A stretch of DNA of 64,000 nt, taken from contig CAYYYP010000009.1 of assembly GCA_964475985.1 (NCBI GenBank), forward strand, positions 14,662-78,661, given 5' to 3'. Numbering within the stretch: position 1 is the stretch's first letter; the number at the start of each line of letters is the position of its first letter. Under the pieces are notes generated by a model. It was given only the letters and a program-made list of their open reading frames with translations. It searched no databases and had not been told where the DNA came from. Shown piece after piece: positions 13,589 through 37,220 of this stretch. Origin of the DNA: an uncultured Oligoflexia bacterium (lineage in GTDB: Bacteria; Bdellovibrionota; UBA1018; CAYHWW01). Both the position numbers and the translations under genes were made by a program.

Positions 13589-14377
13589 CTACCAACTCGC
13601 ATCGATGGCGGCAATGAAACCCGTCCCGATGGTATCTTCGGCCGCCGTGCACACCGCCGGATCAACATTAGTGCAACCGCCAAGCGCGCACACCGCGGCA
13701 ACCACTGTGCTCAAATTGGCAAGGGTTCCGGTGTCTGCCCCCAATGAATCCAAAGAATCATTGATGGTCGAAAATGCAACCTGTATGGAACAACGCTCAG
13801 CCATCGTCGCATCCGACGCGACAAGGGGCGTAGTCTGCGCGCCGGTACCGGAGTCTGCGACGCCCATGCGCGAAATCAAAGATGAGATTACGCCGAGCTG
13901 CATGAAGATCATATAAACATTTGCGTCACCCGGGCGATCCACCGCAAACAAAGAACCATTGGGCGCCGTGGTGCGCAGGATGGTGGCCGCTTCCATGAAA
14001 TTTGCATAATGCCCGTCGGACCCGTTGGAATAGAGTGAACTCACGATAATATTCCAGATATTACCCGATCCCTTAAGATTGGTGATGATCCTCGTCATAG
14101 AGAACCCGGCCTTGCATGCGTAGGCCGAGGAAAAAACCATTCTGACCTCGTTGTCCGTACGGGAGGATTGATAGAGTGGCGTTAAGGTTTCAATGGCCTT
14201 ATCGCAATTCCCGGAATTCAGATAAAGATTGGCCTCTTCAATGACGGCCTGTTTTCCATTATCCGATTGAATGTCCCGGTAGCTTCCGCAGGAATTGAAA
14301 AACAAACTGAGACCCAGCAGCCCCAAAGCCGAAACAGAAAATAACCGACAAGGTTTTTTTGGAAAATCCATTTTCAC
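13589..14377 (-). CDS. Hypothetical secreted protein or lipoprotein
   Basis: N-terminal hydrophobic segment ending ...LSLFFNSC, with no recognisable domain. Confidence 0.45.
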   Translation of the reverse strand: MKMDFPKKPCRLFSVSALGLLGLSLFFNSCGSYRDIQSDNGKQAVIEEANLYLNSGNCDKAIETLTPLYQSSRTDNEVRMVFSSAYACKAGFSMTRIITNLKGSGNIWNIIVSSLYSNGSDGHYANFMEAATILRTTAPNGSLFAVDRPGDANVYMIFMQLGVISSLISRMGVADSGTGAQTTPLVASDATMAERCSIQVAFSTINDSLDSLGADTGTLANLSTVVAAVCALGGCTNVDPAVCTAAEDTIGTGFIAAIDASW

Positions 14378-17370: not shown

Positions 17371-17567
17371 AGTTTTCTCCTTCTCGGCAACGTTTTTTTA
17401 AAGTTGCTGCGCATTAAATTTATAAAATTTCAAATTTCAAGGCGCCTTACATGAAGAACTTCGGACAGATGACTTTAAATATTAAGTTTCTAAGAAATTT
17501 TTTCAAACAAAGGTAGGCGAATACTTCCGAGTTGGTTAAACCTTTTCTTTGCTGTGGTTGCCTCAAA

Positions 17568-20500: not shown

Positions 20501-20765
20501 AATTCCAAGGATTTTGGCCGATCTTTTCGTGTCCCAACTCAAACGTTTGCGGGACTTCACTTGGGAAGAGGCGTTACAAATTTTGCGGGTGCCCTCTGAC
20601 CTTGAGCTTTTTGAGGCTCAGACTTCAGAAATCAGAAGAGTTTGCCAACAAACCTTATTGGAAGTGAGAGCAACGGACCGGGTTATGGAGGTCCTCTCCC
20701 TTGATCTATTTGAGATCCTGCCCCAGGATCGTCAGTACCTGAGGAGTGAGCTCAATTGGGTGTAG
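17568..20765 (+). CDS. Large hypothetical protein with a degenerate gamma-class N6-adenine methyltransferase-like core and a TaqI-like C-terminal target-recognition domain
   Basis: The ORF track starts at a TTG at 17532; I took the first ATG (MTSNF...) at 17568. FDLAIVLDHI sits where FDvIvgNPPY would be, so the catalytic motif is lost. A motif V-like segment (ELHLALALSKLKENGTCVFLSH) follows, then motif VI-VIII-like DRLRRWILSQATLEVQVLDLPEESF...LYVFKRC. The C-terminus has an LSWLCSVLNSSPVQFWIK...GG...IPV pattern typical of TaqI-like TRDs. The N-terminal ~550 aa is unassigned. Confidence 0.55.
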   Translation: MTSNFDSFPKNLNQAPRENDGIFAMMGLIDKDVLSKSLNVPTGKALNPKPVQKSRPPAAAPKLTLSGEEWIQPKNEVSFHPILKSFDELFELFRRDIFQHRDQLLHLNSSRRQMIERRLEVIARRIARARGEKPIKVLSLPDVLRDSFHDMREKSQALAALDGFIAEVALHNIFQIAFLLSADVARLRTFEKNDLTRLNFVCHSFVNQKTIAFNQDKCSWNFVRPSIYSWYSLSPIALEQLNAETLNRLLRKDSPSHKQNQFIDFSSLAPEQESFAFEPLTQNISQLLDGWLSSTHHKAAFDHLDFATERSGIRSLLNFLEAELGVSLADRIQRRLFLKRAFLPCLESGAWALELLESMFKVLEQQWTREGALQGNLGTVSQNVVEAIEYSLQNSLWGCEGESFETFQLEARVLIRVVEFLSKFENHGAGLFSQDGGAQSLYHYHGSKARPLRIPHGIRIAPHLGIELHNLVQEPLSPSFTNLMEIGMSHGRSALKFSNDGVGLPNATTSQGVASASPASLDLASSAHCQLSHQANTAAVIQNSENFDLAIVLDHIDRVRSTRWLKALGEQAPYWRAFLGSSSNLNWGELHLALALSKLKENGTCVFLSHRTLPDGGDGDRLRRWILSQATLEVQVLDLPEESFGSYRHLYVFKRCSQKTERDHHRVHFGSWREPLSLSLLEESSSTQWEISERGWDQVFVRGAAPLVRHLTHKFPKLFQVASVQTWSPDQRGEMQALFDQKDVAALEVKRQGYRLEFQPLQAHSPSRERVVIFPHNANDLSWLCSVLNSSPVQFWIKMQLTQEGGPLRAQDMRSIPVVDMASVSSEVVTQYLQWLSGEQSSSRMNETALLEWCRTASQEEKAPMMVALSRRRFTQKRTLNRYLDLFETFEEDKLDFDPERLSVFYPEHLLSQIGEVSHIRVQYIHPTAVNPNSNLGSGSVANWVLREVNVSQASAASSPAFSLIQVQVKQGGQIRFLIPRILADLFVSQLKRLRDFTWEEALQILRVPSDLELFEAQTSEIRRVCQQTLLEVRATDRVMEVLSLDLFEILPQDRQYLRSELNWV

Positions 20766-21493
20766 AGCTGAGACACGTCAATGGTTGTCTTTTTTTGCGC
20801 AGGCAACTTCGCCTCCTAAAAGACCTGATGGCGGACAAGTCAGCATTTGCAAAGTCCACATTAGAGCTTCTAAACTCGCTTGATTCAAAATTGCCCAATG
20901 ACGAAAATGGAATTCCTCCCCTGGAAGTTTTTGAGTCCTATCTCATCGATGACCTGGATGCGAGTACGGTGCTTCATCACCATTCCGAGGAATTGTTAAG
21001 ACTTGAAAAAATGATTCTGGAACAAAGTTTGTCGGAAACTTCCCGTGAGCAATTCCAGAAGAATCTACGCCACCCGCTGGAACTTAAGGAACGTTCCAAA
21101 TTTTTTGGGCGTAAGGCGGCGTTTGAAATCCTAGAACGTGGAGAACTGGTGCGCCCGCGTCCCTCGGAGGAACTTACCCTTAAGCAAACTCAATGGATTC
21201 TCTATCACCGGTTTCAGTTCGTGCCTTCGTATCAGGAACAGGGTTTTCTCACGGTAAGGGATCTGGAATCGCATTTGCTCATGGAAAATCGTGGCTGCCC
21301 TCACATACGTTGGCAGAGGTCAGCTGAGTTATTGGATTTACTTTGTGATCTAGAAGCGGATTTTTTTCTAGGATTTCTAGAGGTCACGGCCCCCCGCAGC
21401 CATTTTCAAAAGAGGCCGTCGGCATTGGCCCATTGTTGCGTGTGGGAGCTTCACTCTACGGCTGGCTTATCTACTCTTTCAAGCCAGCGATAA
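20756..21493 (+). CDS. Hypothetical protein, translationally coupled to the upstream large gene
   Basis: The ORF overlaps the stop of the upstream gene by 10 bp, and its 3' end overlaps the convergent regulator gene by 43 bp. No recognisable domain. The true start may be the internal Met (MADKSAF). Confidence 0.4.
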   Translation: MGVELRHVNGCLFLRRQLRLLKDLMADKSAFAKSTLELLNSLDSKLPNDENGIPPLEVFESYLIDDLDASTVLHHHSEELLRLEKMILEQSLSETSREQFQKNLRHPLELKERSKFFGRKAAFEILERGELVRPRPSEELTLKQTQWILYHRFQFVPSYQEQGFLTVRDLESHLLMENRGCPHIRWQRSAELLDLLCDLEADFFLGFLEVTAPRSHFQKRPSALAHCCVWELHSTAGLSTLSSQR

Positions 21494-22923
21494 ACTGTAC
21501 GCAAATTGATCCCTAAAATCTGCGCAGCCTGTGCTTTGTCACCTCGACATAGGTCCAGTGTTTGGCGAATCACATGATCTTCAATCTGGCGAAGGGGTGT
21601 ACCGAAGGGAAGTACGATGTGAGCTTCGGGTTCGGCCTTCGCAGATAAAGACTGTTCAAGAATTTGTTTTGGTAGATCACGAACCGTAATCAGTCCGCCT
21701 TGGCAAAGAGCCGCTCCGCGTTCCACGACGTTGCGCAGTTCTCGCACGTTTCCCGGCCAGTCATAACTTTTGCAGAGCGTCCTAGCTTCCTTCGTCATGC
21801 TGACTTCCTGTCGAAGGTTTTCTTGTTCAGGTGTCGTGAAAAACCGGCAAAAGTAATCTAGCAAAGCTTCGATGTCGCCAGGGCGCTGGCGCAATGGATA
21901 CACATCAACGCTCACTACGCGTAATCGGTAGAGTAAATCTTCCCGGAACTTTCCCTGGTCGCAAAGAGATTCAAGCTCCTGGTTCGCCGCCGTAACCCAG
22001 CGCACATCGATTCGTCTACTCTCGTTACTGCCTAGGGGGCGCACCTCTTTTTCCTGGATGACCCTCAGTAATTTTGACTGCATGCTCAAACTCATAGACG
22101 TGATCTCATCAAGAAAAAATGTACCACCGTCGGCCAAGGTAATCTGACCGGGTTTTTCTTGGTGAGCTCCCGTAAAAGCTCCACGTTCATAACCAAAAAG
22201 TTCACTCTCTAATAAAGTTTCCGGCAACGCTGCCGCATTGAGCGCTACGAAAGGTCCATTTTTCCGGAGGCTTTTCTCATGAAGTCGCTTGGCCAGGAGT
22301 TCCTTTCCCGTGCCACTCTCCCCGGTGATGAGCACCGACGCTAAGGTCGGCGCCACTTGATCAATCAGCTGAAGAACCGCTTGGGATTTTAAATCCTTTG
22401 CGATGAACTCCGTGGGCGGCGCAGGAGTCATGGGAAGCGAGGCCGCCTTTTTGGCTTGTTTTAGGCGGTAGGCGCGCAATCTTAAAGTTTCCTGGCAGAG
22501 GAGTTCCAGTTCCTTTTTTTTAAGCGGCTTCATCAAAAAGTGGATGGCACCCTGGCGCATGAGCTCGATGGCCTGGGCGAGATCGCCATAGGCCGTCATA
22601 AAAGCCACGTGCGGGCGGGACGTTTTATCACGTTGTCCCTGACCGCTATGAATCACCAGGTTTTCTAGGCAAGCATGCTTAAAGAACAAGTCCCCATCCA
22701 TGACGGGCATTCTCAAATCGCAAAGGATCAAATCAAATTGTCCCTGATTCCTCAGGATCTGCAATCCTTCTTCGCCGTGGGCAGCGCTCGTGCAATCATG
22801 ACCCAATCGTAAAAACATCTCCTGCAAAGAAACGCGGCCTGAGACATCGTCATCAATGGTGAGGATGCGAAGTTTCCGAAGCTCCTCAGGATGCCCGGAT
22901 GGTTGACGCGTAGGGGGTTTCAT
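21451..22923 (-). CDS. Sigma-54-dependent transcriptional response regulator (NtrC family)
   Basis: Receiver domain (LTIDDD...ILCDLRMPVMDG), an AAA+ sigma-54 activator core (GESGTGKELLAKRLH, a GAFTGA-like ERGAFTGA) and a C-terminal Fis-type HTH. Confidence 0.9.
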   Translation of the reverse strand: MKPPTRQPSGHPEELRKLRILTIDDDVSGRVSLQEMFLRLGHDCTSAAHGEEGLQILRNQGQFDLILCDLRMPVMDGDLFFKHACLENLVIHSGQGQRDKTSRPHVAFMTAYGDLAQAIELMRQGAIHFLMKPLKKKELELLCQETLRLRAYRLKQAKKAASLPMTPAPPTEFIAKDLKSQAVLQLIDQVAPTLASVLITGESGTGKELLAKRLHEKSLRKNGPFVALNAAALPETLLESELFGYERGAFTGAHQEKPGQITLADGGTFFLDEITSMSLSMQSKLLRVIQEKEVRPLGSNESRRIDVRWVTAANQELESLCDQGKFREDLLYRLRVVSVDVYPLRQRPGDIEALLDYFCRFFTTPEQENLRQEVSMTKEARTLCKSYDWPGNVRELRNVVERGAALCQGGLITVRDLPKQILEQSLSAKAEPEAHIVLPFGTPLRQIEDHVIRQTLDLCRGDKAQAAQILGINLRTVYRWLERVDKPAVE

Positions 22924-24793
22924 TTGAGCGCTCTCCTAAATTCTTTGGGGCAAGGGTTTTGAAAAACTGCAATGGTAAGGAAACTTCAAAACACGCGGAA
23001 TTCTTTGCATTGACGCTCAAAGTAAGATCCCCCCCAAATTTACGGCAGAGCTCGCGGGCAACCGCTAAACCAAGGCCATGGCCCTTAGCCTTCGTCGTCA
23101 CGAAAGGCCTAAAAATTTCCGTTCGCAAATCTTGGGAAACACCTGGCCCGTTGTCCGAAACCCGCACTAAAAAATTTTGGGCTACCCGCACCGCTTCAAT
23201 GTGAATGATGCGTTGAGGCGGGGTGGAACCGCCGTGGGCTACGTTTTCGAGATGATCCAGGGTAAAGGCCTCCATGGAATTTTTTACTAAATTCAACAAT
23301 ATTTGTTGAAGTGCGCGCGCTAGATCCTGGGGCAGAAACACCTCTTCCATGGCCTGGGAAATATTGAGATCCATTTCCACGCCATGGGCCATGAGTTGAA
23401 GACTCATGAGATTTAAGCTGTGCTCAAACACTTTTTGAAACTCAACTTTCTTTTTAGCGCTCCAATCATCGCCGATGCGCTGGGTGGAATCACGCGAAAC
23501 ATTCAAGTATTCATCACAAGTGCGATTAAGACGGTCAATCTCCCCGTGAATCAACGCAAGCCTAGCTGAGTCATTTTTTGAAACTTCCAGCATTTCTAAC
23601 TGTAAACTTAATGCATTTAATGGATTCCTGATTTCATGGGCCATCTGGCTTGCCATTTTACCCATGAAGCTCAGTTTTTCCGCAACGCCTAGCCGCTCCT
23701 CTAATTCTACCCGCGGAGTCACGTCGGAAATGATCACCAGGCAATTGACCGCATTTTCTAAGTCAATAAACTGCAAATTGAAATCAAAAGATTTTCCCGC
23801 CAAACGGCCAATTCCTTTAAGTTCATGGAGCTGCAGATTTTCGCCCTTTGCCAACACCGCATTGAGATCCACGCCCAGGTTTTCCAAGAACAACCTTTTT
23901 GAATCAGAGAGCTTAGGTGCGCCTTCATTTTGAAACATGCGCCAGAACGATTTGTTCGTACGTAGAATTCCCCCGTCATGACTGAGCATCATGAGAGCTA
24001 AGTCCAGGGAATCGAGAATTTTATCGCTCAGTGACGTGAGTTTTTTTAGGTCATCTAGACGCCGATGGGAGAATTCTAGCTCAAGGGTTGAGGTGCGTAG
24101 AATTTCTTGCATACTCCTACTGCGGTGGGAAATCTCAAGTTCTTTTTCCTTCTGCAGCTCCTCGAATCTCCGGCGAAAACCGCTTCGTTTCGCCCAGGCG
24201 ACTCCCGCAAAAATGGAAAGGTAGAACGCCCACATGAGAAGTAGATTTCTACTCAATGTATTTTGTTTTACCTGCCAACCGGCCAGGGTATGTTTCTGTT
24301 CGCGTGCGAGGTTCTCTAGACTTCTTTCCATTCGCGCCTGGAGTTCCCTTAAGGACAAGTAAAACTCACCTCCCGCCGTCAAATCACCTTGCGATAAAGC
24401 CCGCTTTAAATTTTTTGCAAAACTTAAGTCTTGCTCGGCGAGCAAGTCATTTTGGTGGGAAAGCAAGTTCTTAAGGCTTCCGTAGGAGGTGTCGAGTTTC
24501 TTAATCAACGACTGGACTTCGGGCTCAATAAATTTTTTGTAGGCGCCGGGCGGTAGGTTTAAATCGAAGTCTTCCGAGCCCCATTTGGAGAATTGCACCG
24601 AGGAGTCAATCATTTTGCGGTACAGTACGAAACGGCCCACGATGTTTTCCGTCTGGGCGAGCGCTCCTTCCACTAGGTTTTGCTGCATGTTCTTGAGTTC
24701 AATCAGTTCTTGATATGCCCAATAGCTTTTACTAGCTAAAACCAACCCTGCGACCAGAAGCACTAGAGGTAAAGGATCCCGAGTTTTGCCCAT
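22886..24793 (-). CDS. Sensor histidine kinase
   Basis: N-terminal membrane anchor with coiled regions, an H-box (MAHEIRNPLNAL) and an HATPase_c domain (VSDNGPGV...GHGLGLAVAREL). It overlaps the downstream regulator gene by 38 bp. Confidence 0.88.
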   Translation of the reverse strand: MGKTRDPLPLVLLVAGLVLASKSYWAYQELIELKNMQQNLVEGALAQTENIVGRFVLYRKMIDSSVQFSKWGSEDFDLNLPPGAYKKFIEPEVQSLIKKLDTSYGSLKNLLSHQNDLLAEQDLSFAKNLKRALSQGDLTAGGEFYLSLRELQARMERSLENLAREQKHTLAGWQVKQNTLSRNLLLMWAFYLSIFAGVAWAKRSGFRRRFEELQKEKELEISHRSRSMQEILRTSTLELEFSHRRLDDLKKLTSLSDKILDSLDLALMMLSHDGGILRTNKSFWRMFQNEGAPKLSDSKRLFLENLGVDLNAVLAKGENLQLHELKGIGRLAGKSFDFNLQFIDLENAVNCLVIISDVTPRVELEERLGVAEKLSFMGKMASQMAHEIRNPLNALSLQLEMLEVSKNDSARLALIHGEIDRLNRTCDEYLNVSRDSTQRIGDDWSAKKKVEFQKVFEHSLNLMSLQLMAHGVEMDLNISQAMEEVFLPQDLARALQQILLNLVKNSMEAFTLDHLENVAHGGSTPPQRIIHIEAVRVAQNFLVRVSDNGPGVSQDLRTEIFRPFVTTKAKGHGLGLAVARELCRKFGGDLTLSVNAKNSACFEVSLPLQFFKTLAPKNLGERSNETPYASTIRAS

Positions 24794-24907
24794 TGACTCA
24801 TATTCTACATGAGGCGGAATTTAGAAAAAGGATGATGCTTTAAGTCAGACAAGACAAATTGCCAAAGTTAGGAAGTTTTTGCCTAGCTTGGAAAGGGCTC
24901 ACCGGTG

Positions 24908-25029
24908 GCCACACGACGGCCCAAAAAAACTTGCGTGAGGAAACGGGCATCCTGCCCTGCTTCACGCTTGGGATCGTCATCGTGACGCGTGAGCTTCCTC
25001 ACGCAAGTTTTTTTGGGCCGCCGTGTTTC
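24908..25029. repeat. Composite palindromic element, copy B: ~33-bp inverted arms with one mismatch around a 52-nt structured core, in opposite orientation to copy A
   Basis: Arms are cacacgacggcccaaaaaaacttgcgtgaggaa and ttcctcacgcaagtttttttgggccgccgtgt. The reverse complement of the core matches copy A (CTCACGCGTCA[G/C]GATGACG[G/-]ATCCCA[C/A]GCGTG) and then forms GGGCA-gga-TGCCC where copy A has GCGCA-cga-TGCGC. Confidence 0.8.
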
Positions 25030-25167
25030 ATACGCTGTGCATTTCTTTGGCCTGGAATTACATATCTAACAAACGAATTTAAATTGATTACTTTTCTCAG
25101 GACATACTTTGCGTACGGGCGCTGGCATTTTGGATCGAGGTCGTTGCTGCACCTATGACAAACTGAC

Positions 25168-28100
25168 CTACCGCAAACCCTGAAGGCTTTTTGTAATGCA
25201 GTTTAAACCTTCGGCCGAGGTTGGGGTTTCGATTAGTGGAGTGAGGAGATTTGTTAGTGTGGTTTGGAGTTCGGTGCCTTGGGGGCCGCGGTAGTGGGCG
25301 AAGGATCTTTCGGTGAAACCGCGGGCGGCTTGCGTTTTAGAGATGACGTGGGCGGCCGTGGTGGAGAAGGCTTGCCTGAGTTGGCTGGGAGATGGACTTA
25401 CTTCTAGATTTAGTTCGGAGTGAATGGAGTTCAAATGAGTTACGGCCTCACCTACGGAAATTTGGTTTTGGTTTAATCTTTGATAGGTACGAATAAGGCG
25501 GTCGGCGAGCATGAGGGCTTCGCGAGGGTCGAGGCTTTGGTGTCCGCCTACACTTTGGATGATGCGCCGGAGTTGGGAGTGTTCGCGGGCGATGGCTTCG
25601 TTTCTTTCGTTTAAGACACTAGATTCAAGTCCTAAGGGGTTACCTAAAAATGGGATAGTCGTGGGCTCGTGGGCTAAATTTTCAGTGATGGATTGGGACG
25701 GCTCAGTTGGGCTAGAAGCGGCAACCGGCGCCTCAGTGAGTCCAAGTGCAAGATAGTCTCGCAGCGGAGGTAAGGCGTACGTTAAAGGTGCACTATCAAC
25801 AGATTTTGTTGTATTTGTAGCTGTAGCTGTCGCAAAATTTGGGGACGCGTTTTGGATGCGCCTGCGGGCGATAAATTCTCTTGCTCTCATCGCCGCGTTC
25901 CTTGCCCTGCGCCACCATTCTTGAATATGACTTTGGGTGGTTTGGAATCCTCGTCTTAATCCTGCACCACGGGATTGCGCGACTGCCGGCACCGGCGAGC
26001 GAGGGTCGCGTCGGTTTGGGGTTGAATCATAAATCGTACGGCGAATTTCGCCAGCGGGTGACCTGCGCAGTTCGTGAGTTCTTGCGTGAAAGTCGTCAGC
26101 CCTTAATGTCCGAGCACCCGGCTCCACCCAGAATTCCGAGCGGGACTCAACTCTCACCGATGGATTTCCACCATGATAGCTTTCTAGAACCGCACTAAAA
26201 ATTTCACTGGCGCCAGAACACTGCGTGCAGACCACGGCATCCTCCGCCAGAAACCTTGCTAGCGGCGTGAACTCATTTTCAAGTTTCGTACTGGGATGCG
26301 CAGGAAATGTTTGTTCCGATCGGTAAGTATAAAGGCCTGACTCTCGAACCGTGGCTTCCAGTTCTGATCCAACCACTAAAATACTATTGCGTTCGGAGTG
26401 CGACCGCATCAAAGCATCAAGCCTATCCGCTAATACTACAAAACCCGCATCCCTAAGTCGCATAATCACCGGTCTTAGGCGTTCTATTTCATAAGTCTGC
26501 GAAAGCGGATTTGCCGCATCGGGCGTGGCGGATATTCGGTAAGCGGCATTGATATGAAAGAAGGGAACCTGCCCCCCGACCTCTCTTCGCAAACGAACAA
26601 TGTTTTCCCGCGTTGGCCCGTGCATGAGAACATCATAATCTTTACCTTGCTTAAGCCTGCGGCCTTGGAGATCGGTCACTTCAATATGGGAGAGCACGTG
26701 ATTTTCTGGCCGCGGAAGTGGTGCATCCGGGGCATGTGGCCCGCCGAGCATGGGAACTCGAGTGCGAACCTCCACCAACGCCGGATAATTTCTATTTCTT
26801 CCACGTAAAAGCCAAGCCACGGGATTCCTTGCGGGAGGTGGTGGTACGTTCACAACATGGGATTCTGAAGCATTTCTAAAATCTTCAACTTGTCCCAGGA
26901 GAAAGTGAGCGGGCATTTGTTCTCGAGGAATTCGCCCGCGGTAAGCCACATGATAATGAATGTCGTCCTTTGGGATATGGTTGGTCGCGGTGCTCCTAGC
27001 CCCCAATGGCAACGCTACCGGCTGCGGGGTAGCGGTCGCCGATGTTGGAGGAGCTTCTAAATTATTATTATTTTGGGCCGTCGGCATTAGAAACCCGCCG
27101 TGGTTAGCTCGGTCTATCCGTTCCACTAAGTTTTCGGCGGGTAAATTATTACGCCTAAGCGATCGTTCTCTTTCCAATACAGAGTCCATTCCTTCGCTCC
27201 AAAGGTGAGCCTCCAATGCTACGGCAGCTTTGTTGATGTCATTTGGCAACCACCGCAACGGTTGGGTTTGTTCATGCTGCCGCACGAAATGTCCGAGCTG
27301 AAATTCCATATCGGAATCTGCGGTAAACTGCGCATCAAGCACCCTCACCCCTTCCGCATAATTCTGAATCAAATGCGGTACGGATCTTCGAAATAAAGTC
27401 TCCCGAACGAGGTCCTGCTCCGTAAGTATCTCGCCCCGGGGCCCCCTGGCGTCTGGCTCCGTCATGAAATATGTGGAAACCGCGTCCGGGTTCATTTCTG
27501 GGGGTAAATGCGGTAAATACTGGAGCGTGCTCACGGGCACCCTTTGACCGCTCAGCAATAGAACAGGTTCATTTGTAAGCGAATCCCATTCAAAATTAAT
27601 TCTATTTAGGTCAGCGACATCCAAGATATGCACGTCTTTTCCAATCCTGCGTCCCTGCACATCAAAACCTTCCGGTAGAACTCCTCGATAATTCGGATCC
27701 GGAATATACGCGAGCGATCCATGCCCTTCCGAGATCATCGTCGCAAATGCGCCTCGAAATCGGTTCCGTAAAACATCCAACTGCCTTCGCCGCCACAGGG
27801 CTAATTCCTGAGCCGGCGGCAGCCGCAAAGCATTGGCTTTTCTTACTCTTGCATCGTGGGTAAGATGGGTGACCAGCCGATGATAATCCTGATTATAGGG
27901 TGGTTGATTTAGGAAACGTTCCGGGCTCAGCGTGACCGAATTTTTTTGAATGAAATCTGGCGTTCGAGATGGAATGCCCGGAAGGGAAAGTGGCGCCACT
28001 TGGGGCAAGTTTTCAGGTAATGGGCTCGCCGATACTCCATAGGGAGCAATGCTTCTAGTTGATAAAACGACTTCGGTTAACGGATGAGACTGGCTGATGG

Positions 28101-30429
28101 TTTCTAAAATTTGCGCTCGCGCCTGAACGTCGATGACCGTCTGTTCCCTTGGGGATAAAGGCGGAAGCATTGCTTCGTTGGACGTTACTTTTTCGCCCGT
28201 TTCGGAAACATTTTGTGCCGGGTTTCGTTGTCGCGCCTGCAACCGCAAGTAATCATGCTGAAGCCGAGTCATGGGGTCTAGTAAAAAGCTCTCCCCTCGC
28301 GACTGCACTGCCTCGTCCAGAAGTCGGTTTCGCCGCAAATGCCCGATCCGCATATTCCGAATGCGATCCGCCCCAAACAAGGTGGTGCCCCAATTGATTG
28401 CATTATAAATTTCTGACGCAGTACGGTCCGTAATTTTTGAATGATCAAATAATGTCGTGAGGCTCGGAAGCCCTGGCTGCTTCACCGTACTTAGCACCAC
28501 TTGGGCAAGGTCACCTAAGGACCCATCTTGTCCCCTTAGGCGGAGCAAAGGTTCTTCCTGCTCCCTCACAATATTCCCAACGCCAAGTGACTGAGCCACA
28601 TCTAGATCCGGCGTAATAAAGAGCGCCATCCCCGAATGGACACTGCGCACCGGCGTAGGGCCCGCCAAAAGAAGTTCAACATCGTTTGTGCGTTCCAGTA
28701 GAGACGAAGGAACCGTCATATGCGACTGCGAACCTATGTAACGATCATAAAGTACTCCGCTGGGTATACCTCGCCTTCGCACCCAGTCCCTCGTGCGGTT
28801 ATGCCAGTCCGCAGTATTATCGCCCCACCATTTACCATGGCCAGCATCCACGCCGGCCCGCACTTCGGGGATGGTGTGGTAGAAATCAGTTAAGGTGTCG
28901 AGCGCATAGGTATAATTTAATGAACTTGGGGTTTCTGTTCTTAAAATTTCCACAAGCTCGTCGCGAATATTTCTATCGTAGTGGACCAAACGGCGAAAGG
29001 CCGGAAAGAAATTTAAAAACTTTCGGTTTCTTACATCTTCGAGAATAAACGCCCTAGTCTCCGGCGTGTAGGCCGAGGCAGGGATTGCGCGATTAAGGGA
29101 AGAAATCAATCGGTCGTAGGGAAACTGATTCCTAAGATATGGAGCATTATAAATATTAATTATTGCAGCCTGGACCTCCGGTCTCGAATAACCCACATCA
29201 ACCATGTCTGGCAGGCGCGCTACGGCGTGCATAATCAACGCTACGTTAAGGTGAGTCCCATCGCCGCCACTGTTCCTCGAGATATTTCGCGCAAAGTGCC
29301 CCAAAACATACGCCGAAAGCTCAGGCGAAAAAGTTTCTTTAGAACCCTGGTATCTATCAGCCGTTAGTTTTAAAATTTTCGCCACCAAGTTATAGCGACC
29401 TTGAGCTTCAAGTTCCGGTAAAATATATCGGGCTAACGCGGCCTCGGGCGGCCGTAACTTAGTACGTTTATTGTTCAGTTCTGCGGTGAGAATATCCACA
29501 AATGCATCAGGGTCCCTCCGCAATTCTGCTAAGTAAAAATCTCGAATCCGCGGGCTCGCATACATGAGGTGCGGAAAAAGATGGAAGATATCTTTTGGTT
29601 GTGAAAGAAGCGCACTTTCAATTTCTGGATGGAGCTGGCGAGTATTTCCTAATTTCTGAATAAGCTGCCGCATATCATCCCCGTAAAAGTACCCCCTAGC
29701 GTGCCGCCGCAAAAAAGCCTCGCGCACCCAACGGACTCCATTCACGTGCTCAAGCAAAGAAGATTCAAACACTAGCGCGTCAAGATCTGCAGATTCCATG
29801 ACCAGACTTCCAGAGTCCGTACTCCAAGGGTGCGCCGCAAGTAAGGGCCCCCATTGCTCCAAGTCAGCCCGTGGAGTGTGGTAGTACACCGCCAGCCCTT
29901 TGATAAACGTATCCTCCGCAACGAATCGCTCCCCCTCGGGAACTTCGTAGAGTCTCGCTAAAATAAGGGATTTAAACCGTTGATTACCGTTCGCAATATG
30001 AAAGAGTCGCGCCCATACGTCCATGCTCGAATAATTCGTACGACGTAAAAAGCTCAATAAAATTTTAATCCCATCAAGCCCCGACCATGAGTATCCCGTC
30101 GCATGCAAAATCCGATACGCCTTTTCACCACGGAGCGCCTCCGCTTCAGCCCCACTTTGAAGGCCTCGGGCAAGCCGCACAAGTTCATCCAACGCCACTT
30201 GCCGATCACCGGCATTTTGGTTGAAAATCGCCTTAATTAAAAATACAAATCCGTCGGCCTGCGCCGACTGGAAGTCAAACGTATCCACGATGGCCCCTAC
30301 CCGTTCCCGAATCAAATGCGGTGGTGAACCAAAAACCAAATGCGGAGAAAATCCCTCCGCCGCCAACACTGCGACGAGGGTAAAACACCACAACCTAAAT
30401 TTTGACCAGGTTTTTGGGACGGACGTCAT
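25168..30429 (-). CDS. Giant hypothetical secreted protein (1753 aa) with no recognisable domain
   Basis: Uninterrupted 5.26-kb ORF starting ATGACGTCC with an N-terminal signal-like segment (FRLWCFTLVAVLAAEG). Arg-rich, with composition similar to the 1616-aa protein. It is followed by palindromic element B. Confidence 0.7.
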   Translation of the reverse strand: MTSVPKTWSKFRLWCFTLVAVLAAEGFSPHLVFGSPPHLIRERVGAIVDTFDFQSAQADGFVFLIKAIFNQNAGDRQVALDELVRLARGLQSGAEAEALRGEKAYRILHATGYSWSGLDGIKILLSFLRRTNYSSMDVWARLFHIANGNQRFKSLILARLYEVPEGERFVAEDTFIKGLAVYYHTPRADLEQWGPLLAAHPWSTDSGSLVMESADLDALVFESSLLEHVNGVRWVREAFLRRHARGYFYGDDMRQLIQKLGNTRQLHPEIESALLSQPKDIFHLFPHLMYASPRIRDFYLAELRRDPDAFVDILTAELNNKRTKLRPPEAALARYILPELEAQGRYNLVAKILKLTADRYQGSKETFSPELSAYVLGHFARNISRNSGGDGTHLNVALIMHAVARLPDMVDVGYSRPEVQAAIINIYNAPYLRNQFPYDRLISSLNRAIPASAYTPETRAFILEDVRNRKFLNFFPAFRRLVHYDRNIRDELVEILRTETPSSLNYTYALDTLTDFYHTIPEVRAGVDAGHGKWWGDNTADWHNRTRDWVRRRGIPSGVLYDRYIGSQSHMTVPSSLLERTNDVELLLAGPTPVRSVHSGMALFITPDLDVAQSLGVGNIVREQEEPLLRLRGQDGSLGDLAQVVLSTVKQPGLPSLTTLFDHSKITDRTASEIYNAINWGTTLFGADRIRNMRIGHLRRNRLLDEAVQSRGESFLLDPMTRLQHDYLRLQARQRNPAQNVSETGEKVTSNEAMLPPLSPREQTVIDVQARAQILETISQSHPLTEVVLSTRSIAPYGVSASPLPENLPQVAPLSLPGIPSRTPDFIQKNSVTLSPERFLNQPPYNQDYHRLVTHLTHDARVRKANALRLPPAQELALWRRRQLDVLRNRFRGAFATMISEGHGSLAYIPDPNYRGVLPEGFDVQGRRIGKDVHILDVADLNRINFEWDSLTNEPVLLLSGQRVPVSTLQYLPHLPPEMNPDAVSTYFMTEPDARGPRGEILTEQDLVRETLFRRSVPHLIQNYAEGVRVLDAQFTADSDMEFQLGHFVRQHEQTQPLRWLPNDINKAAVALEAHLWSEGMDSVLERERSLRRNNLPAENLVERIDRANHGGFLMPTAQNNNNLEAPPTSATATPQPVALPLGARSTATNHIPKDDIHYHVAYRGRIPREQMPAHFLLGQVEDFRNASESHVVNVPPPPARNPVAWLLRGRNRNYPALVEVRTRVPMLGGPHAPDAPLPRPENHVLSHIEVTDLQGRRLKQGKDYDVLMHGPTRENIVRLRREVGGQVPFFHINAAYRISATPDAANPLSQTYEIERLRPVIMRLRDAGFVVLADRLDALMRSHSERNSILVVGSELEATVRESGLYTYRSEQTFPAHPSTKLENEFTPLARFLAEDAVVCTQCSGASEIFSAVLESYHGGNPSVRVESRSEFWVEPGARTLRADDFHARTHELRRSPAGEIRRTIYDSTPNRRDPRSPVPAVAQSRGAGLRRGFQTTQSHIQEWWRRARNAAMRAREFIARRRIQNASPNFATATATNTTKSVDSAPLTYALPPLRDYLALGLTEAPVAASSPTEPSQSITENLAHEPTTIPFLGNPLGLESSVLNERNEAIAREHSQLRRIIQSVGGHQSLDPREALMLADRLIRTYQRLNQNQISVGEAVTHLNSIHSELNLEVSPSPSQLRQAFSTTAAHVISKTQAARGFTERSFAHYRGPQGTELQTTLTNLLTPLIETPTSAEGLNCITKSLQGLR

Positions 30430-30545
30430 CTTCTAAGTGATCGGAAGAAGACCAGAATCCATGGATAGCTAGGTTAGCTTAAATCAAAAAAGCGAATTTC
30501 ACTTGGCAAAAGATTCCCCACGCCACGGCATTAAATTTATTTTAT

Positions 30546-32302: not shown

Positions 32303-34978
32303 GTGGCCGAACCTATTTCTAACAACCTCAAAGATATGATCGAAGATTCACCCGAATTTGACCCGCGGGCACAAATTATTTTCATCCATCCTTTGACCCC
32401 GTCCTTACAAAAACTCCTGGAATCCCTGAAGAAAGATCCTAATTCGAATCTCATCGAAGCGGGCAGCGCCATGGAAGCGATGCAAATCGCTCAGATGTAT
32501 AAACCGTGTATCCTAACGGGCAGCATGACCCAGGATTCTGACATTGTAAAAATGTTCACTTTATTTGCGGGCCTCAAATCCGACATCAAAAACAATCACA
32601 TCAAAACAATGTTGTTATCCGCGGTAAAGGATACTCGCATCGTTAGAAAATTTTCCGACTTAGGCTGCACAGATTACATTTTTGAACCGGTTCCCATTCG
32701 GCAGCTCCTCCATAAATTCAGCCTGCAAATCCGCGCAAACCGGGCGGCCCGCAAACAGCGCAATAACAAAGACATTGATTTAAAACGATTGGACCAAAAG
32801 CAATTCCAACGCAACAATCTTAACCAGGAAAATGCGGCGAATTTACGAGAACTTGCCGCCAATGAAGTAGAACAGGATTGCTGGATTACCCGGGGAAAAC
32901 CGAGGCTAATCGACGGAACCTGGAACGTGTCCATGATTGGTCCGCCCACCCATGAAGGAAGGTGGGAAAGGCATAACGATCAGATCTGGAAGTACGTGCC
33001 AAGTGATCCTAAAAGTCTTGGGCCCGAAAAGGGAAATTGGTATTTCTCAGGCCAAAAGCCAAGTTACTCAAGGCTTGAATGGCTTTTCAAGAGTGACGCA
33101 CCAAAACTCTACTTCCAGGACGCAAAAGGAAAAATTCTATTTTATAAGCTTAATCTTGCCGCTGACGAAAAACTGGAAATGGCTAAGGACTCAGCCATTG
33201 CCCAGCAACGATTGGCCGAAGAAAAAAGGCAAATTGAAGAGCTGGCAAATTCGGCTGAACCAGAATCGTCGCCAAATAAAAATAAAAAAGAAACATTGAG
33301 TCCTGACGAACACGTTTCAAATTCTAGCGATTCGGAAAAGGAAACGCCAGAGGATGAAACGGGGGAATCGAGCGATTCCGAATCCAATAATTTACAATAT
33401 AAAAGTCTAAAGACAGAAAGCCAGGATAAGGCTAGTGCCCGTAAAAAAAGGAATCTAATTGAGGTCCCCCCGGGGGCCGAAGTAGATTCACCGGAAGCAA
33501 ACGAAGATAACCCCGAAGAAAAAGCGCTAAAAAGAAAACGAGCAAGTACGATTGTGGTGCCACCCGGCAAAGATCAGCCAAAGGCACCGGCCACCACAAG
33601 CCAAAGTCCAACTAATGACCCCTTAACTTCAAAAACTCAATCTCCCAAATCTGCCGAAGAAGAACCAACGCAAAGGCCCATGGTACCTCCCGGCCAAATT
33701 GCCAAAAATTCCTCTTCCAAGAAAACAGCCGCCCATAATGAAAAAGAAAACTCAGGCCCATCCAATGTTCCTAAATCTAATGATCCCACCGCAAATTCTA
33801 GTTCCGGGCCTAACCAAACTCCTGCCAAATTTTCAAAAAAGGACCGCGCTGTTAGAGCGGATGGTGATTCACTTCAGGATCAGGAACCTGACCCTGAAAA
33901 GCAAAGGAGAGGCTTAGACCAAAGAAACTTTTTGCAAAAAAAGGATTCAGAGAAAGGTCCAAACCCGGGAAACACTCGGCCTAAGGTCAACGATCAGCCC
34001 ACCTTAAACAGAAAAAACTCCGAAGAAAATGGCGATGAGAACCAGCCTCTGAAGTCAAAAAATTTCCTAAAGAAAAAAAGTATCGAGGAAAAAAACCAAA
34101 GCCACTCTGAAGATGCCACCAACGCGAGTTCTAGGGAAAATAAGGGCCAAGGCCCAAGCACCGACCCTAACGCATCGAAGGTAAGGCAGCCAAGCGCAAA
34201 CCATCTCGAAAGAAAAGCGAATGGTTCCGGACCTGATGTCGCCGGTGCATCCCGGAAGCAAAACGAAACGATCAAAAAAAATCTGGCGGACAATAACGGT
34301 AATCCAGAAAACACGCCCAACCCAAATAAAGCCGCTGCAAAGCAAGCCCCAAAAAGGAAAACTAGAGAGGCCTCGGAGGGCTCTCCAACTATTGGAGAAA
34401 CTGAAGGATCAGCCGGTGACAACTTTCAAGCAGACGATGAGGATTCGCCGCTAACCCCCGAAGAAACCTCACCGGTCTCGACCGATTTATTATCAAAAGA
34501 CGAGCAGACTCTACTGACCAAAGAAGATTTCTCCGTTGAATTTGATCCCAGTGCAGCGGAACCGTTAAATGCATCCGAAACCTTACCCCCCTTAGTTTTG
34601 CTTATGAAAATCACCGATTTATTAACTCAGCGAAATCTCCCGCTGGAGCAGCTCACCGAAAAAATCTTCAAAATCCTTTTTCAGGAACTGAAAAAAATTT
34701 ATCGCAGCCCTAAACTTTTTTTATTGCAAGCAGACTCTACTCTACAATTGGCATTTCCACCCTCCCCTGCTTTAACCCCCGGACGCCCCGTGGCATTGAG
34801 TGCAATCCATAAAATTTTCCCCCTCTCGGTATCCGATAAGTCTTCGGGCTTCCTGTGCCTAGAACTGAATGGCCCCCAAATGGATCCAGCGGAACTTGCA
34901 AAATACCGCGTGGTAGCACTGGGCCTGTTATCATTAATGCAATGCCTCACGGTCAAAAACCCGGCAAAAGCTGCCTAA
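32303..34978 (+). CDS. Hypothetical protein: receiver-like N-terminal domain, ~550-aa K/E/S/P/N-rich disordered region, and a structured C-terminal domain
   Basis: GTG start in the ORF track. The N-terminal ~130 aa has receiver-fold-like alternation but no clear phospho-acceptor Asp. A long low-complexity middle follows, then a C-terminal ~180-aa hydrophobic/structured region. It lies immediately upstream of the HD-GYP gene. Confidence 0.5.
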   Translation: MAEPISNNLKDMIEDSPEFDPRAQIIFIHPLTPSLQKLLESLKKDPNSNLIEAGSAMEAMQIAQMYKPCILTGSMTQDSDIVKMFTLFAGLKSDIKNNHIKTMLLSAVKDTRIVRKFSDLGCTDYIFEPVPIRQLLHKFSLQIRANRAARKQRNNKDIDLKRLDQKQFQRNNLNQENAANLRELAANEVEQDCWITRGKPRLIDGTWNVSMIGPPTHEGRWERHNDQIWKYVPSDPKSLGPEKGNWYFSGQKPSYSRLEWLFKSDAPKLYFQDAKGKILFYKLNLAADEKLEMAKDSAIAQQRLAEEKRQIEELANSAEPESSPNKNKKETLSPDEHVSNSSDSEKETPEDETGESSDSESNNLQYKSLKTESQDKASARKKRNLIEVPPGAEVDSPEANEDNPEEKALKRKRASTIVVPPGKDQPKAPATTSQSPTNDPLTSKTQSPKSAEEEPTQRPMVPPGQIAKNSSSKKTAAHNEKENSGPSNVPKSNDPTANSSSGPNQTPAKFSKKDRAVRADGDSLQDQEPDPEKQRRGLDQRNFLQKKDSEKGPNPGNTRPKVNDQPTLNRKNSEENGDENQPLKSKNFLKKKSIEEKNQSHSEDATNASSRENKGQGPSTDPNASKVRQPSANHLERKANGSGPDVAGASRKQNETIKKNLADNNGNPENTPNPNKAAAKQAPKRKTREASEGSPTIGETEGSAGDNFQADDEDSPLTPEETSPVSTDLLSKDEQTLLTKEDFSVEFDPSAAEPLNASETLPPLVLLMKITDLLTQRNLPLEQLTEKIFKILFQELKKIYRSPKLFLLQADSTLQLAFPPSPALTPGRPVALSAIHKIFPLSVSDKSSGFLCLELNGPQMDPAELAKYRVVALGLLSLMQCLTVKNPAKAA

Positions 34979-36562: not shown

Positions 36563-37099
36563 TTAAGTACCATTTGGATCACAAGCGATACCTTGGCGAG
36601 TGAGGGCCTCGCAAACGGCTTGCTTAATGTATTGTTCATTGCGGCTCTGGGCATCCCGGTCAATGCATTCCAAATTATTCACCATGAGATCAAGCATGCT
36701 GAGCGCGACGTGCCCACCCTGTAAAGTGATCGCTAACGGCGTAGCGATCCCACTGCAGATCAAACCAATCTGGGCAATACCGGCCGTGATGTGAATCACC
36801 GTCAACGATGCTTGGAGCACTTGCTTGTCGGTACACGACAAAGTTTTTGATTGCTCAATGGCCGCATCCACCGGGTCTTGAGAATACTGGTCTTGAGTCA
36901 TCCAGTGACTAATGCCACCTCCTTGCTCGCACTCCTGCACTCGGCTTACGGAAAATGTCGCGCTTCCGGGCCCTGGATACACATCACCTACGGAAATGTC
37001 AGCGTTTGCTGTAGGGCTTAGAAGACAGGTGCCAAAAATGAGGACACCTACAACGGATATCAGACTCACCATTTTTAATTTTTTACGATCTTCGCTCAT
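36563..37099 (-). CDS. Small Cys-containing secreted hypothetical protein
   Basis: Signal-like segment (MVSLISVVGVLIFGTCLLSPTANA), 8 Cys and an AAGGAG RBS. A nested hairpin lies in the 5' UTR. Confidence 0.5.
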   Translation of the reverse strand: MSEDRKKLKMVSLISVVGVLIFGTCLLSPTANADISVGDVYPGPGSATFSVSRVQECEQGGGISHWMTQDQYSQDPVDAAIEQSKTLSCTDKQVLQASLTVIHITAGIAQIGLICSGIATPLAITLQGGHVALSMLDLMVNNLECIDRDAQSRNEQYIKQAVCEALTRQGIACDPNGT

Positions 37100-37220
37100 G
37101 ACTGATTGCTCTCCTTTATTAAGGGGCAGTTAAGGGTAAGCGTCACCTCACCCTCACTGCCCTTGGCTTTTGAAAAGGCCAAGTGAGCAACTTCAATGCC
37201 ACGAACTTTAAACCTGAGTT

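What the first reader, a model, noticed from the sequence alone, without database searches (positions are those of the whole stretch)
25168..30429. Second giant (1753-aa) domain-less secreted protein, a possible paralog of the 1616-aa protein
The two giant proteins have the same character: signal peptide, Arg-rich content, elevated GC and no known domains. Each has a copy of the palindromic element next to it, and this one sits next to a sigma-54 two-component system. I could not establish homology between the two by eye, so paralogy is only suspected. Two giant unknowns in 64 kb is unusual.
Basis: inference. Interest (0 to 1): 0.65.

Follow-up and report, generated by a model that had tools for sequence, protein, structure and literature searches.

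The report
Giant secreted transglutaminase-like enzyme, rare family
The 1753-residue gene is real and encodes a secreted protein of a very rare, unnamed family from uncultured predatory-type bacteria (Bdellovibrionota); it contains a hidden, very divergent transglutaminase-like Cys-His-Asp enzyme core, and that core is the only part it detectably shares with the neighbouring 1616-residue protein.

Summary
The ORF 25168-30429(-) is real: 1753 aa, with a signal peptide, Arg 9.7 % and Lys 1.7 %, and no Pfam, NCBIfam or PDB sequence hit. Homology to the 1616-aa protein (4531-9381(-)) is real but limited. Only a stretch of about 310 aa aligns (BLASTP E 2e-16; hhalign 97.5 %), and the flanks are not detectably similar.

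An exhaustive HMMER search of 1.84 billion cluster representatives found 64 relatives. Three are full-length homologs (28-36 % identity). The rest are mostly 900-1450 aa, nearly all with signal peptides, and all come from metagenomes.

The shared core has an invariant Cys (G..C.QC.G.N), an invariant His (HA.T) and a near-invariant Asp (D.TP). AlphaFold (pLDDT 86-93) gives a beta-sandwich followed by an alpha/beta domain, with the Cys at a helix N-terminus and the His and Asp on successive strands. Against eight real bacterial transglutaminase-core sequences, hhalign aligns all three residues in register (P 2.6e-4; 0 of 300 shuffles reach the score). Foldseek finds no significant PDB neighbour; the best hit is transglutaminase 3 at E 0.26.

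A single Cys lies 4-29 residues from the C-terminus in 55 of 63 members. GC3 and codon usage are native, so there is no sign of horizontal acquisition. The sigma-54 system and the palindrome are neighbours without a shown functional link.

Verdict: a divergent secreted transglutaminase-fold thiol enzyme; its substrate is unknown.

The parts
25168..30429 (-). Complete gene for the 1753-aa secreted protein (stop codon included)
   Evidence: ORF list and translation. Full-length homologs P0010, P0011 and P0012 at 28-36 % identity.
30328..30429 (-). Putative Sec signal peptide, aa 1-34
   Evidence: Basic n-region and hydrophobic core LWCFTLVAVLAA. Nearly all family members start with a signal peptide. 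Judged by eye; the cleavage site is uncertain.
27568..28398 (-). N-terminal module shared with the shorter family members, about aa 678-954
   Evidence: hhalign of the target-subfamily N-region against the N-regions of 42 mid-size members: probability 94.5 %, E 8e-8, 194 columns.
26488..26775 (-). Beta-sandwich domain immediately before the catalytic core, aa 1219-1314
   Evidence: AlphaFold2 model, pLDDT mostly 80-97 in this part, all-beta. Foldseek matches Ig-like adhesin and pilin domains.
25975..26496 (-). Transglutaminase-like Cys-His-Asp catalytic core, aa 1312-1485. Codons: Cys1404 at 26218-26220, His1448 at 26086-26088, Asp1468 at 26026-26028, second Cys1401 at 26227-26229
   Evidence: Cys and His invariant in 64 of 64, Asp in 62 of 64. 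AlphaFold2 pLDDT 93.1, pTM 0.87. hhalign to real transglutaminase cores aligns the triad in register, P 2.6e-4, 0 of 300 shuffles reach the score. Codons verified.
25171..25974 (-). C-terminal region, aa 1486-1753, with the conserved near-terminal Cys1744 (codon 25198-25200)
   Evidence: hhalign of the target-subfamily C-region against mid-size members: probability 96.7 %, E 4e-10. A single Cys 4-29 aa from the end in 55 of 63 members, against 6.8 expected.
4531..9381 (-). The homologous 1616-aa gene (probable true start ATG at 9378, giving 1615 aa). Shared core is about aa 932-1294; the BLAST segment is encoded at 5509-6261
   Evidence: It is P0013. Its triad is intact (VAVC, HARTY, DSTP).
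24911..25026 (.). Palindromic element 142 bp downstream of the stop codon: 32-nt arms, 52-nt loop, with A7 and T7 runs inside the arms. Probably a bidirectional terminator and a repeated element
   Evidence: RNA fold -88 kcal/mol, z -10.7. Terminator-like hit. Loop sequence shared with the element at 10795-10910.
30506..30520 (-). Weak sigma-54-type -24/-12 match TGGGGAATCTTTTGC, whose 3' end lies 76 nt upstream of the ATG. A hint only
   Evidence: 11 matches in the window against 12.9 expected by chance. Not conserved upstream of homolog P0011.

Best explanation
The gene encodes a large protein exported by the Sec pathway. It belongs to a rare, uncurated family found in uncultured bacteria; this genome groups with Bdellovibrionota/Oligoflexia.

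The architecture is: signal peptide; a long N-terminal region (about 640 aa specific to the subfamily, then a module shared with the rest of the family); a beta-sandwich; a highly divergent transglutaminase-like (papain-type) catalytic domain with Cys1404, His1448 and Asp1468; and a C-terminal domain that ends in a conserved cysteine followed by a short amphipathic tail.

Shown here: the family, the invariant triad, the predicted topology, the in-register profile alignment to real transglutaminase cores, the secretion signals, and the native codon usage.

Inferred: outside the cytoplasm the protein acts as a thiol acyl-transfer enzyme (a protease, a deamidase/amidase, or a protein cross-linking transglutaminase). 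The large non-catalytic parts would serve substrate or surface binding.

Inferred more weakly: the near-C-terminal cysteine pairs with the active-site cysteine(s) as a disulfide latch that keeps the exported enzyme latent until it is reduced or processed. In most mature members these are practically the only cysteines.

The 1616-aa neighbour is a second, anciently diverged member with the same core.
For: - Family: an exhaustive HMMER search found 64 relatives at E <= 1e-3 among 1.84 billion representatives. All hits other than the full-length homologs map to the core.
- Conservation: Cys and His are invariant in 64 of 64, and Asp-x-Thr in 62 of 64.
- Structure: AlphaFold2 models are confident (pLDDT 86.2 and 93.1; pTM 0.80 and 0.87). 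The Cys sits at the N-terminus of a helix, the His at the start of a strand, and the Asp just after the next strand. A beta-sandwich precedes the core, as in animal transglutaminases.
- Profile comparison: hhalign of the family core against eight real 'transglutaminase family protein' sequences scores 29.6 (P 2.6e-4, 101 columns), with Cys, His and Asp aligned to the transglutaminase Cys, His and Asp. None of 200 shuffled templates or 100 shuffled queries reaches this score (mean 10.9, maximum 19.8).
- Fold search: the best of 350,542 PDB chains is transglutaminase 3. Vasohibin-2 and factor XIIIa are also in the top 21.
- Secretion: signal peptides are present in nearly all members.
- Cysteines: 55 of 63 members have one Cys near the C-terminus against 6.8 expected, and there are only 55 other Cys in 69,669 residues.
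- Native origin: GC3 and codon usage match the neighbours.
- Taxon: the closest named SecA relatives (62-69 % identity) are Oligoflexia, Bdellovibrionota and Bacteriovoracia MAGs.
Against: - No curated model recognises the domain (Pfam, NCBIfam, PADLOC).
- The family profile finds nothing in PDB sequences.
- Foldseek E-values are not significant (best 0.26, TM 0.38).
- hhalign probability is only 42 %. Against the single human TG2 core sequence, only the D-x-T-P motif aligned.
- No activity, substrate or localisation data exist.
- The disulfide-latch idea rests on the cysteine census alone.
- The N-terminal 640 aa remain entirely unexplained.
Confidence: 0.66

Rival explanations
1. A non-enzymatic surface or extracellular structural protein or adhesin. 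The conserved Cys, His and Asp would be structural (for example disulfide or metal ligands), and the large helical and beta-sandwich parts would do the work.
For: Size, signal peptide and the Ig-like beta-sandwich that matches adhesin and pilin domains. No significant match to any enzyme model.
Against: The strict invariance falls on exactly one Cys, one His and one Asp. Their order, spacing (44 and 20 residues) and secondary-structure positions are those of papain/transglutaminase enzymes, and they align in register with real transglutaminase cores. Adhesins usually show tandem repeats, and none were seen in the window.
Confidence: 0.12
2. A thiol-disulfide oxidoreductase-like module. The C-x-Q-C motif at a helix N-terminus, together with the third C-terminal cysteine, would act in redox chemistry rather than acyl transfer.
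For: The C-x-x-C motif is present in 50 of 64 members at a helix N-terminus. There is a conserved third Cys, and the proteins are otherwise almost free of cysteine.
Against: The first Cys is missing in 14 of 64 members, including the 1616-aa homolog (VAVC), while His and Asp are invariant or nearly so. No thioredoxin-fold protein appears among the fold matches. The profile aligns to transglutaminase cores instead.
Confidence: 0.08
3. A horizontally acquired polymorphic toxin or effector with a catalytic toxin domain near the C-terminus, delivered to other cells.
For: A long N-terminal region followed by a C-proximal catalytic domain; the composition is unusual for the window; the host lineage is predatory-type.
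Against: GC3 and codon usage are native. No known trafficking domains (RHS, PAAR, TPS, LXG) were found by Pfam. No conserved small 'immunity' gene lies next to the family genes in four contexts. The core is followed by a conserved domain of about 270 aa rather than ending the protein.
Confidence: 0.08

Closest known systems
Bacterial transglutaminase-like superfamily (Pfam PF01841 Transglut_core, COG1305 'transglutaminase family protein'; Makarova, Aravind & Koonin 1999, cited from own knowledge)
   Same: A Cys-His-Asp triad in the same order. The Cys is at a helix N-terminus, and the His and Asp lie on consecutive strands. The motifs resemble each other: H-A-x against H-A-W, and D-x-T-P against D-P-T. 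The profile alignment keeps the triad in register.
   Different: It is not recognised by the Pfam model. The Cys motif differs (C-x-Q-C-D-G-x-N instead of G-x-C-x-D-F-A). A three-helix bundle precedes the Cys helix. The domain is embedded in secreted proteins of 900-1800 aa with family-specific N- and C-terminal domains and a conserved near-terminal Cys.
Animal transglutaminases (TG2, TG3, factor XIIIa)
   Same: A beta-sandwich immediately before the catalytic core. Gln directly precedes the catalytic Cys (QC against GQCW). They are the best fold matches found in the PDB: 8rmy_A at rank 1 and 5mho_B at rank 21 for the core, and 6kzb and 5mhl for the two-domain model.
   Different: The fold match is not significant (E 0.26, TM 0.38). 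There is no Ca-binding insert between Cys and His. The C-terminal part is not shown to be beta-barrels. hhalign against the TG2 core aligned only the D-x-T-P motif.
LapG-type bacterial transglutaminase-like cysteine proteases (BTLCP, Pfam PF06035) and the giant adhesins they cleave (own knowledge)
   Same: An exported transglutaminase-fold thiol enzyme acting on large surface proteins would be a comparable mode of action.
   Different: No PF06035 match. LapG is a small protein of about 25 kDa that acts in trans. Here the core is part of the giant protein itself.
The 1616-aa protein of the same window (4531-9381(-))
   Same: Signal peptide, Arg-rich and Lys-poor composition, the same beta-sandwich plus Cys-His-Asp core at the same relative position, and a near-C-terminal Cys (C1596...DECILRSL...).
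   Different: 29 % identity, and only over about 310 aa. The N- and C-terminal regions are not detectably related. It lacks the first Cys of the CxQC motif. It has no full-length homolog in the 1.84-billion library.

Membership tests
Transglutaminase-like / papain-type Cys-His-Asp superfamily | Conserved catalytic Cys, His and Asp, in that order along the chain | tested here: met
   Cys1404 and His1448 invariant in 64 of 64 members, Asp1468 in 62 of 64. Spacing is 44 and 20 residues.
Transglutaminase-like / papain-type Cys-His-Asp superfamily | Cys at the N-terminus of an alpha-helix; His and Asp on adjacent beta-strands | tested here: met
   AlphaFold2 model with pLDDT 93.1: Cys93 starts helix 93-108, His137 is in strand 136-145, and Asp157 follows strand 151-156. 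This is a prediction. The side-chain geometry could not be inspected.
Transglutaminase-like / papain-type Cys-His-Asp superfamily | Significant sequence or profile similarity to recognised members (PF01841) | tested here: inconclusive
   Pfam hmmscan found nothing for the two window proteins, seven full-length relatives and 38 core sequences. hhalign against eight real transglutaminase cores gave P 2.6e-4 and probability 42 %, with the triad in register and 0 of 300 shuffles reaching the score. Supportive, but below the usual 90 % threshold.
Transglutaminase-like / papain-type Cys-His-Asp superfamily | Structural similarity to solved members | tested here: inconclusive
Transglutaminase-like / papain-type Cys-His-Asp superfamily | Thiol-dependent acyl-transfer activity | not testable with these tools
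   Needs biochemistry.
Same protein family as the 1616-aa neighbour (paralogy) | Significant homology between the two proteins | tested here: met
   BLASTP E 2e-16 over 258 aa. hhalign probability 97.5 %, E 8e-12 over 311 columns. Core Smith-Waterman z = 30.
Same protein family as the 1616-aa neighbour (paralogy) | Homology over the full length (recent duplication) | tested here: not met
   N- and C-terminal regions give z = 1.2 and -0.5. No further significant hhalign segments.
Thioredoxin-type CxxC oxidoreductases | Conserved CxxC pair on a thioredoxin fold | tested here: not met
   The first Cys is absent in 14 of 64 members, including the paralog. No thioredoxin-fold hits appear in Foldseek.
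Polymorphic toxin / contact-dependent effector systems | Known trafficking domain plus an adjacent immunity gene | tested here: not met
   No Pfam trafficking domains. Neighbours differ in all contexts examined.
Horizontally acquired island gene | Deviant GC3 or codon usage relative to the host genes | tested here: not met
   GC3 is 0.492 against 0.45-0.53 in the neighbours, and codon-usage distance is 0.055, the lowest in the window. The GC excess is at codon position 2.

The most novel reading that the evidence does not exclude
These proteins are true secreted protein cross-linking transglutaminases of a predatory-type bacterium, exported in a latent form that is locked by a disulfide between the near-C-terminal cysteine and the active-site CxQC. 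The strong lysine depletion of the organism's own signal-peptide proteins (Lys replaced by Arg) would then be self-protection against its own Gln-Lys cross-linking chemistry, or against a Lys-directed activity it releases. That would be a new enzyme architecture coupled to proteome-wide compositional immunity.
Probability: 0.1. Interest if true: 0.8.

Novelty: new variant of a known kind. Interest (0 to 1): 0.5.

Why it matters
The work turns two 'giant hypothetical proteins' into a testable object. It defines a protein family of about 64 sequence clusters with a predicted active site (Cys1404, His1448, Asp1468). No curated library recognises the family, and it has no significant structural neighbour in the PDB by Foldseek.

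If the enzymes are active, they extend the transglutaminase/papain superfamily into very large exported proteins of uncultured Bdellovibrionota. In that group, secreted enzymes that remodel prey or surfaces are of direct interest.

Two features give cheap, specific experimental handles: the conserved near-terminal cysteine, and the lysine-poor composition of this organism's exported proteins. On its own, however, an uncharacterised large secreted protein with a predicted catalytic triad is not rare in metagenome-assembled genomes. The finding is therefore of moderate rather than exceptional interest.

Tried and rejected
- Word-indexed homolog searches found only the protein itself when queried with the full protein, and nothing when queried with the family alignment.
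- Exact-sequence look-ups of the source contig failed.
- A scan of GTDB genomes with the full protein found nothing. The first alignment had no conserved stretch usable for a scan. The motif CAQCDG[STG]N found a single MAG and nothing in JGI metagenomes.
- Pfam, NCBIfam and PADLOC gave no hit for the target; the 1616-aa protein gave only sub-threshold matches. Pfam at E <= 10 on 38 cores found no recurrent family; one member matched arylamine N-acetyltransferase at E 0.048.
- PDB sequence searches with the protein and with the profile found nothing.
- hhalign against a single human TG2 core aligned only the D-x-T-P motif.
- tblastn of the core against plasmids found no match.
- Sigma-54 promoter idea: my first pattern had the wrong spacing. 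The correct TGG-N8-TTGC does occur upstream of the gene, but the total count in the window is at the chance level and the motif is absent upstream of homolog P0011. I keep it only as a hint.
- Conserved synteny: none in four contexts (and the window).
- Palindrome as a widespread element: 25 exact hits to its 19-nt loop in metagenome contigs are all chance matches inside coding DNA, without flanking inverted repeats.
- Literature searches for Bdellovibrio with transglutaminase-like proteins, or for lysine-depleted secretomes, returned nothing relevant.
- Horizontal transfer is rejected on GC3 and codon usage.
Full report
**1. The observation**

The ORF list gives a 1753-codon ORF at 25168-30429 on the minus strand with an ATG start, and a 1616-codon ORF at 4531-9381 on the same strand (translations). 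The second ORF most probably starts one codon later, at ATG 9378, which follows an AGGGG ribosome-binding site. That gives the 1615-aa form that exists in public protein sets as P0013.

The target begins MTSVPKTWSKFRLWCFTLVAVLAAEGFSPHLVFG, a basic n-region followed by a hydrophobic core. I read this as a Sec signal peptide by eye, because no predictor was available.

Arg is 9.7 % and Lys 1.7 %; the neighbour has 10.6 % and 1.5 %. GC is 0.512 and 0.504, against 0.483 for the window. Pfam, NCBIfam, PADLOC and PDB sequence searches return nothing for the target.

The downstream genes are a HisKA/HATPase_c histidine kinase (22886-24793) and a receiver/sigma-54-activator/HTH_8 regulator (21451-22923). 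Upstream is methionyl-tRNA synthetase. The rest of the window is ordinary chromosome: SecA, EF-G, an aminotransferase, M16 peptidases and others.

**2. Is it foreign DNA?**

No. Its GC3 (0.492) lies in the middle of the neighbours' range, and its codon-usage distance from the other genes (0.055) is the smallest in the window. The extra GC sits at codon position 2 (0.451 against about 0.35-0.40), so it reflects amino-acid composition: Arg, Pro and Ala replacing Lys.

**3. Are the two giants related?**

Yes, but only in one module. BLASTP finds a single significant segment, target 1237-1471 against 1041-1291, at 29 % identity and E 2e-16. An all-against-all BLASTP of 32 window ORFs finds no other related pair.

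Smith-Waterman scores against shuffled sequences give z = 30 for the core. The N-terminal parts give only 1.2 and the C-terminal parts -0.5. A profile of the target's own subfamily, compared with the neighbour by hhalign, extends the homology to 1156-1475 against 932-1294 (311 columns, probability 97.5 %, E 8e-12). Nothing else is significant.

**4. The family**

The word-indexed search of 5.8 billion proteins returned only the protein itself. The exhaustive HMMER search of 1.84 billion cluster representatives was queried with target aa 600-1753 aligned to the neighbour's core. It found 64 proteins at E <= 1e-3.

- Three are full-length homologs: P0010 (1721 aa), P0011 (1673 aa) and P0012 (1626 aa). 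They are 36, 33 and 28 % identical to the target over the whole length.
- One is the window neighbour itself (P0013).
- The rest are mostly 900-1450 aa and match only profile positions of about 610-930, which is the core.

Nearly all begin with a clear signal peptide. None carries a source name, and all come from metagenome assemblies or MAGs. A scan of 185,579 GTDB species genomes for the most conserved motif found one MAG. The family is therefore real but very rare.

Profile comparisons show the target shares more than the core with the shorter members. Its aa 678-954 match their N-terminal region (probability 94.5 %, E 8e-8), and its C-terminal region matches theirs (96.7 %, E 4e-10). The first 640 or so residues are specific to the giant subfamily.

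**5. Source organism**

The closest named relatives of the window's SecA (62-69 % identity) are MAGs labelled Oligoflexia, Bdellovibrionota, Bacteriovoracia and Bdellovibrionales. A near-identical strain is present in sequencing runs SRR14932552 and SRR14932553. P0011 comes from the same sample, SRR14932553.

**6. The core domain**

In an alignment of all 64 cores the invariant positions are Cys1404 and His1448. Asp1468 and Thr1470 are present in 62 of 64. The motifs are G-x-x-C-x-Q-C-x-G-x-N, H-A-x-T and D-x-T-P.

AlphaFold2 with 38 family sequences gives confident models: pLDDT 86.2 and pTM 0.80 for aa 1195-1500, and pLDDT 93.1 and pTM 0.87 for aa 1312-1494. The models show:

- A beta-sandwich (aa 1219-1314).
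- Three helices after it.
- A helix that starts exactly at the invariant Cys.
- Three strands, with the His at the start of the second strand and the Asp just after the third.

This is the topology of papain/transglutaminase-type thiol enzymes (established knowledge). A beta-sandwich directly before the core is also the arrangement in animal transglutaminases.

**7. Tests of membership in the transglutaminase superfamily**

Negative or weak results:
- Pfam at permissive thresholds on 38 cores found no recurrent family.
- The family profile against PDB sequences found nothing.
- Foldseek against 350,542 PDB chains found nothing below E 0.1. The best hit is transglutaminase 3 (8rmy_A, E 0.26, TM 0.38). 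Vasohibin-2, a transglutaminase-like protease, is at rank 12 and factor XIIIa at rank 21. TG2 and factor XIIIa also appear for the two-domain model.
- hhalign against the single human TG2 core aligned only D-x-T-P with D-P-T-P. I had first verified that this TG2 sequence is identical to PDB TG2 residues 250-401.

A fairer test used a reference alignment from real genes. I wrote a consensus-like probe and used it only to fish sequences. It retrieved 492 plasmid records, many annotated 'transglutaminase family protein'. I took eight diverse ones, from Burkholderia, Deinococcus, Sinorhizobium, Rhizobium, Bradyrhizobium, Clostridium, Ralstonia and Enterococcus.

hhalign of the family core against this alignment scores 29.6 (P 2.6e-4, probability 42 %, 101 columns). 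It places Cys1404 on the transglutaminase Cys (GVC), His1448 on the His (SHAW) and Asp1468 on the Asp (DPT).

Controls: 200 column-shuffled templates and 100 column-shuffled queries give a mean of 10.9, sd 2.3 and maximum 19.8, and none reaches 29.6. A reversed template scores 10.5. The positive control, bacterial cores against human TG2, scores 56.

I conclude that the core is a very divergent transglutaminase-like domain. The triad and topology criteria are met. The similarity criteria are supportive but below conventional thresholds.

**8. A second conserved feature**

These proteins are almost free of cysteine. In 55 of 63 members with a complete C-terminal region there is exactly one Cys 4-29 residues from the C-terminus, against 6.8 expected from composition. 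It is followed by a short amphipathic stretch. In the target this is LNC(1744)ITKSLQGLR, and in the neighbour DEC(1596)ILRSLSQT.

Apart from the signal peptide, the active-site Cys and the Cys three residues before it (present in 50 of 64), only 55 other Cys occur in 69,669 residues. Several members have just two Cys, the catalytic one and the terminal one.

I infer a functional pairing, most simply a disulfide latch or plug on the active site of the exported enzyme. This is inference only.

**9. Context**

- The palindrome at 24911-25026 (32-nt arms, 52-nt loop) lies 142 bp after the stop codon. As RNA it folds at -88 kcal/mol (z -10.7) and has A7 and T7 runs inside the arms, so either strand would read stem plus U-run. 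It looks like a bidirectional terminator between the gene and the kinase operon.
- A second copy with a near-identical loop sequence lies at 10795-10910. It is separated from the 1616-aa gene by ORF 9499-10803.
- A TGG-N8-TTGC match ends 76 nt upstream of the start codon. Such matches are no more frequent in the window than chance, and the motif is not conserved upstream of P0011.
- Family genes in other contigs have unrelated neighbours: an M3 peptidase and DUF1275; CYTH and a glyoxalase; an SDR and HtrA.

I therefore see no evidence of a functional link to the sigma-54 system or to the palindrome.

**10. Mechanism, novelty and score**

The best-supported reading is an exported thiol acyl-transfer enzyme (protease, deamidase or amidase, or cross-linking transglutaminase). 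Its large N-terminal part would bind a substrate or a surface. The enzyme may be held latent by its C-terminal cysteine.

It is a new variant of a known kind. The catalytic principle is known, but the family, its architecture, its cysteine pattern and its distance from every curated model and solved structure are new.

A specialist would find this mildly to moderately surprising. I score interest at 0.5, with a 10 % chance of the more remarkable reading set out in the novel case.

Noticed in passing
window ORFs 4531-9381, 9499-10803, 13589-14377, 25168-30429, 36563-37099, 43118-44215, 56613-57845: Lysine depletion is a trait of the signal-peptide proteins of this window in general. Lys is 0.2-3.4 % in 7 of 8 ORFs with an N-terminal signal or lipoprotein-like sequence, against 3.7-9.9 % in 23 ORFs without one (Mann-Whitney p = 3e-5). 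Arg is raised in several of them. The exception is the probable outer-membrane protein 12395-13546 (Lys 5.2 %)..
   Followed up: partly
window 10795-10910 and 24911-25026: Two nested-hairpin palindromic elements (34- and 32-nt arms, 48- and 52-nt loops) share the loop sequence CTCACGCGTCA(G/C)GATGACG and have A/T runs inside the arms, like bidirectional terminators. No copies were found in JGI metagenome contigs; the 25 exact 19-mer hits are chance matches in coding DNA..
   Followed up: partly
L002 1-152 (Logan SRR14932552 contig) against window 24794-25168: The contig of the near-identical strain ends 152 bp beyond the kinase gene, roughly at the palindromic element. An assembly break at a repeated or hairpin sequence would explain this. 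I did not align the two sequences.
   Followed up: no
window 37187-37201(-) and 56564-56578(+): Good sigma-54-type -24/-12 matches (TGGCATTGAAGTTGC and TGGCACCCGGCTTGC) lie in intergenic DNA directly upstream of two small Pfam-less exported proteins, ORFs 36563-37099 and 56613-57845. These are better candidates for targets of the NtrC-type regulator than the giant gene.
   Followed up: no
window 9499-10803(-): The mechanical TTG start is probably wrong. From Met37 the sequence MLFGFKNLFRNILCLALVASILLQLKLAVG reads as a signal peptide. The protein is Arg-rich and Lys-poor (9.0 % and 0.9 %), has no Pfam hit, and lies 118 nt upstream of the 1616-aa gene on the same strand, so it may be co-transcribed with it.
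   Followed up: partly
L007 75-102 against window 30427-30454: About 25 nt immediately upstream of the start codon are conserved between the target and homolog P0011 (TTCCGATnAnTTAGAAGATG), although the proteins are only 33 % identical. This could be a shared translation-initiation or regulatory element. P0011 comes from the same sample as the near-identical strain and is not syntenic, so it may be a third paralog.
   Followed up: partly
window 17532-20765(+) and 32303-34978(+): Two further large ORFs (1077 and 891 aa) have no Pfam match and no signal peptide. They are unrelated to the giants by BLASTP.
   Followed up: no
family member P0065 (1791 aa): One distant family member has HEAT repeats (PF13646, E 2e-24) in its N-terminal region. 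This hints that the long N-terminal parts of the family may be alpha-solenoids.
   Followed up: no
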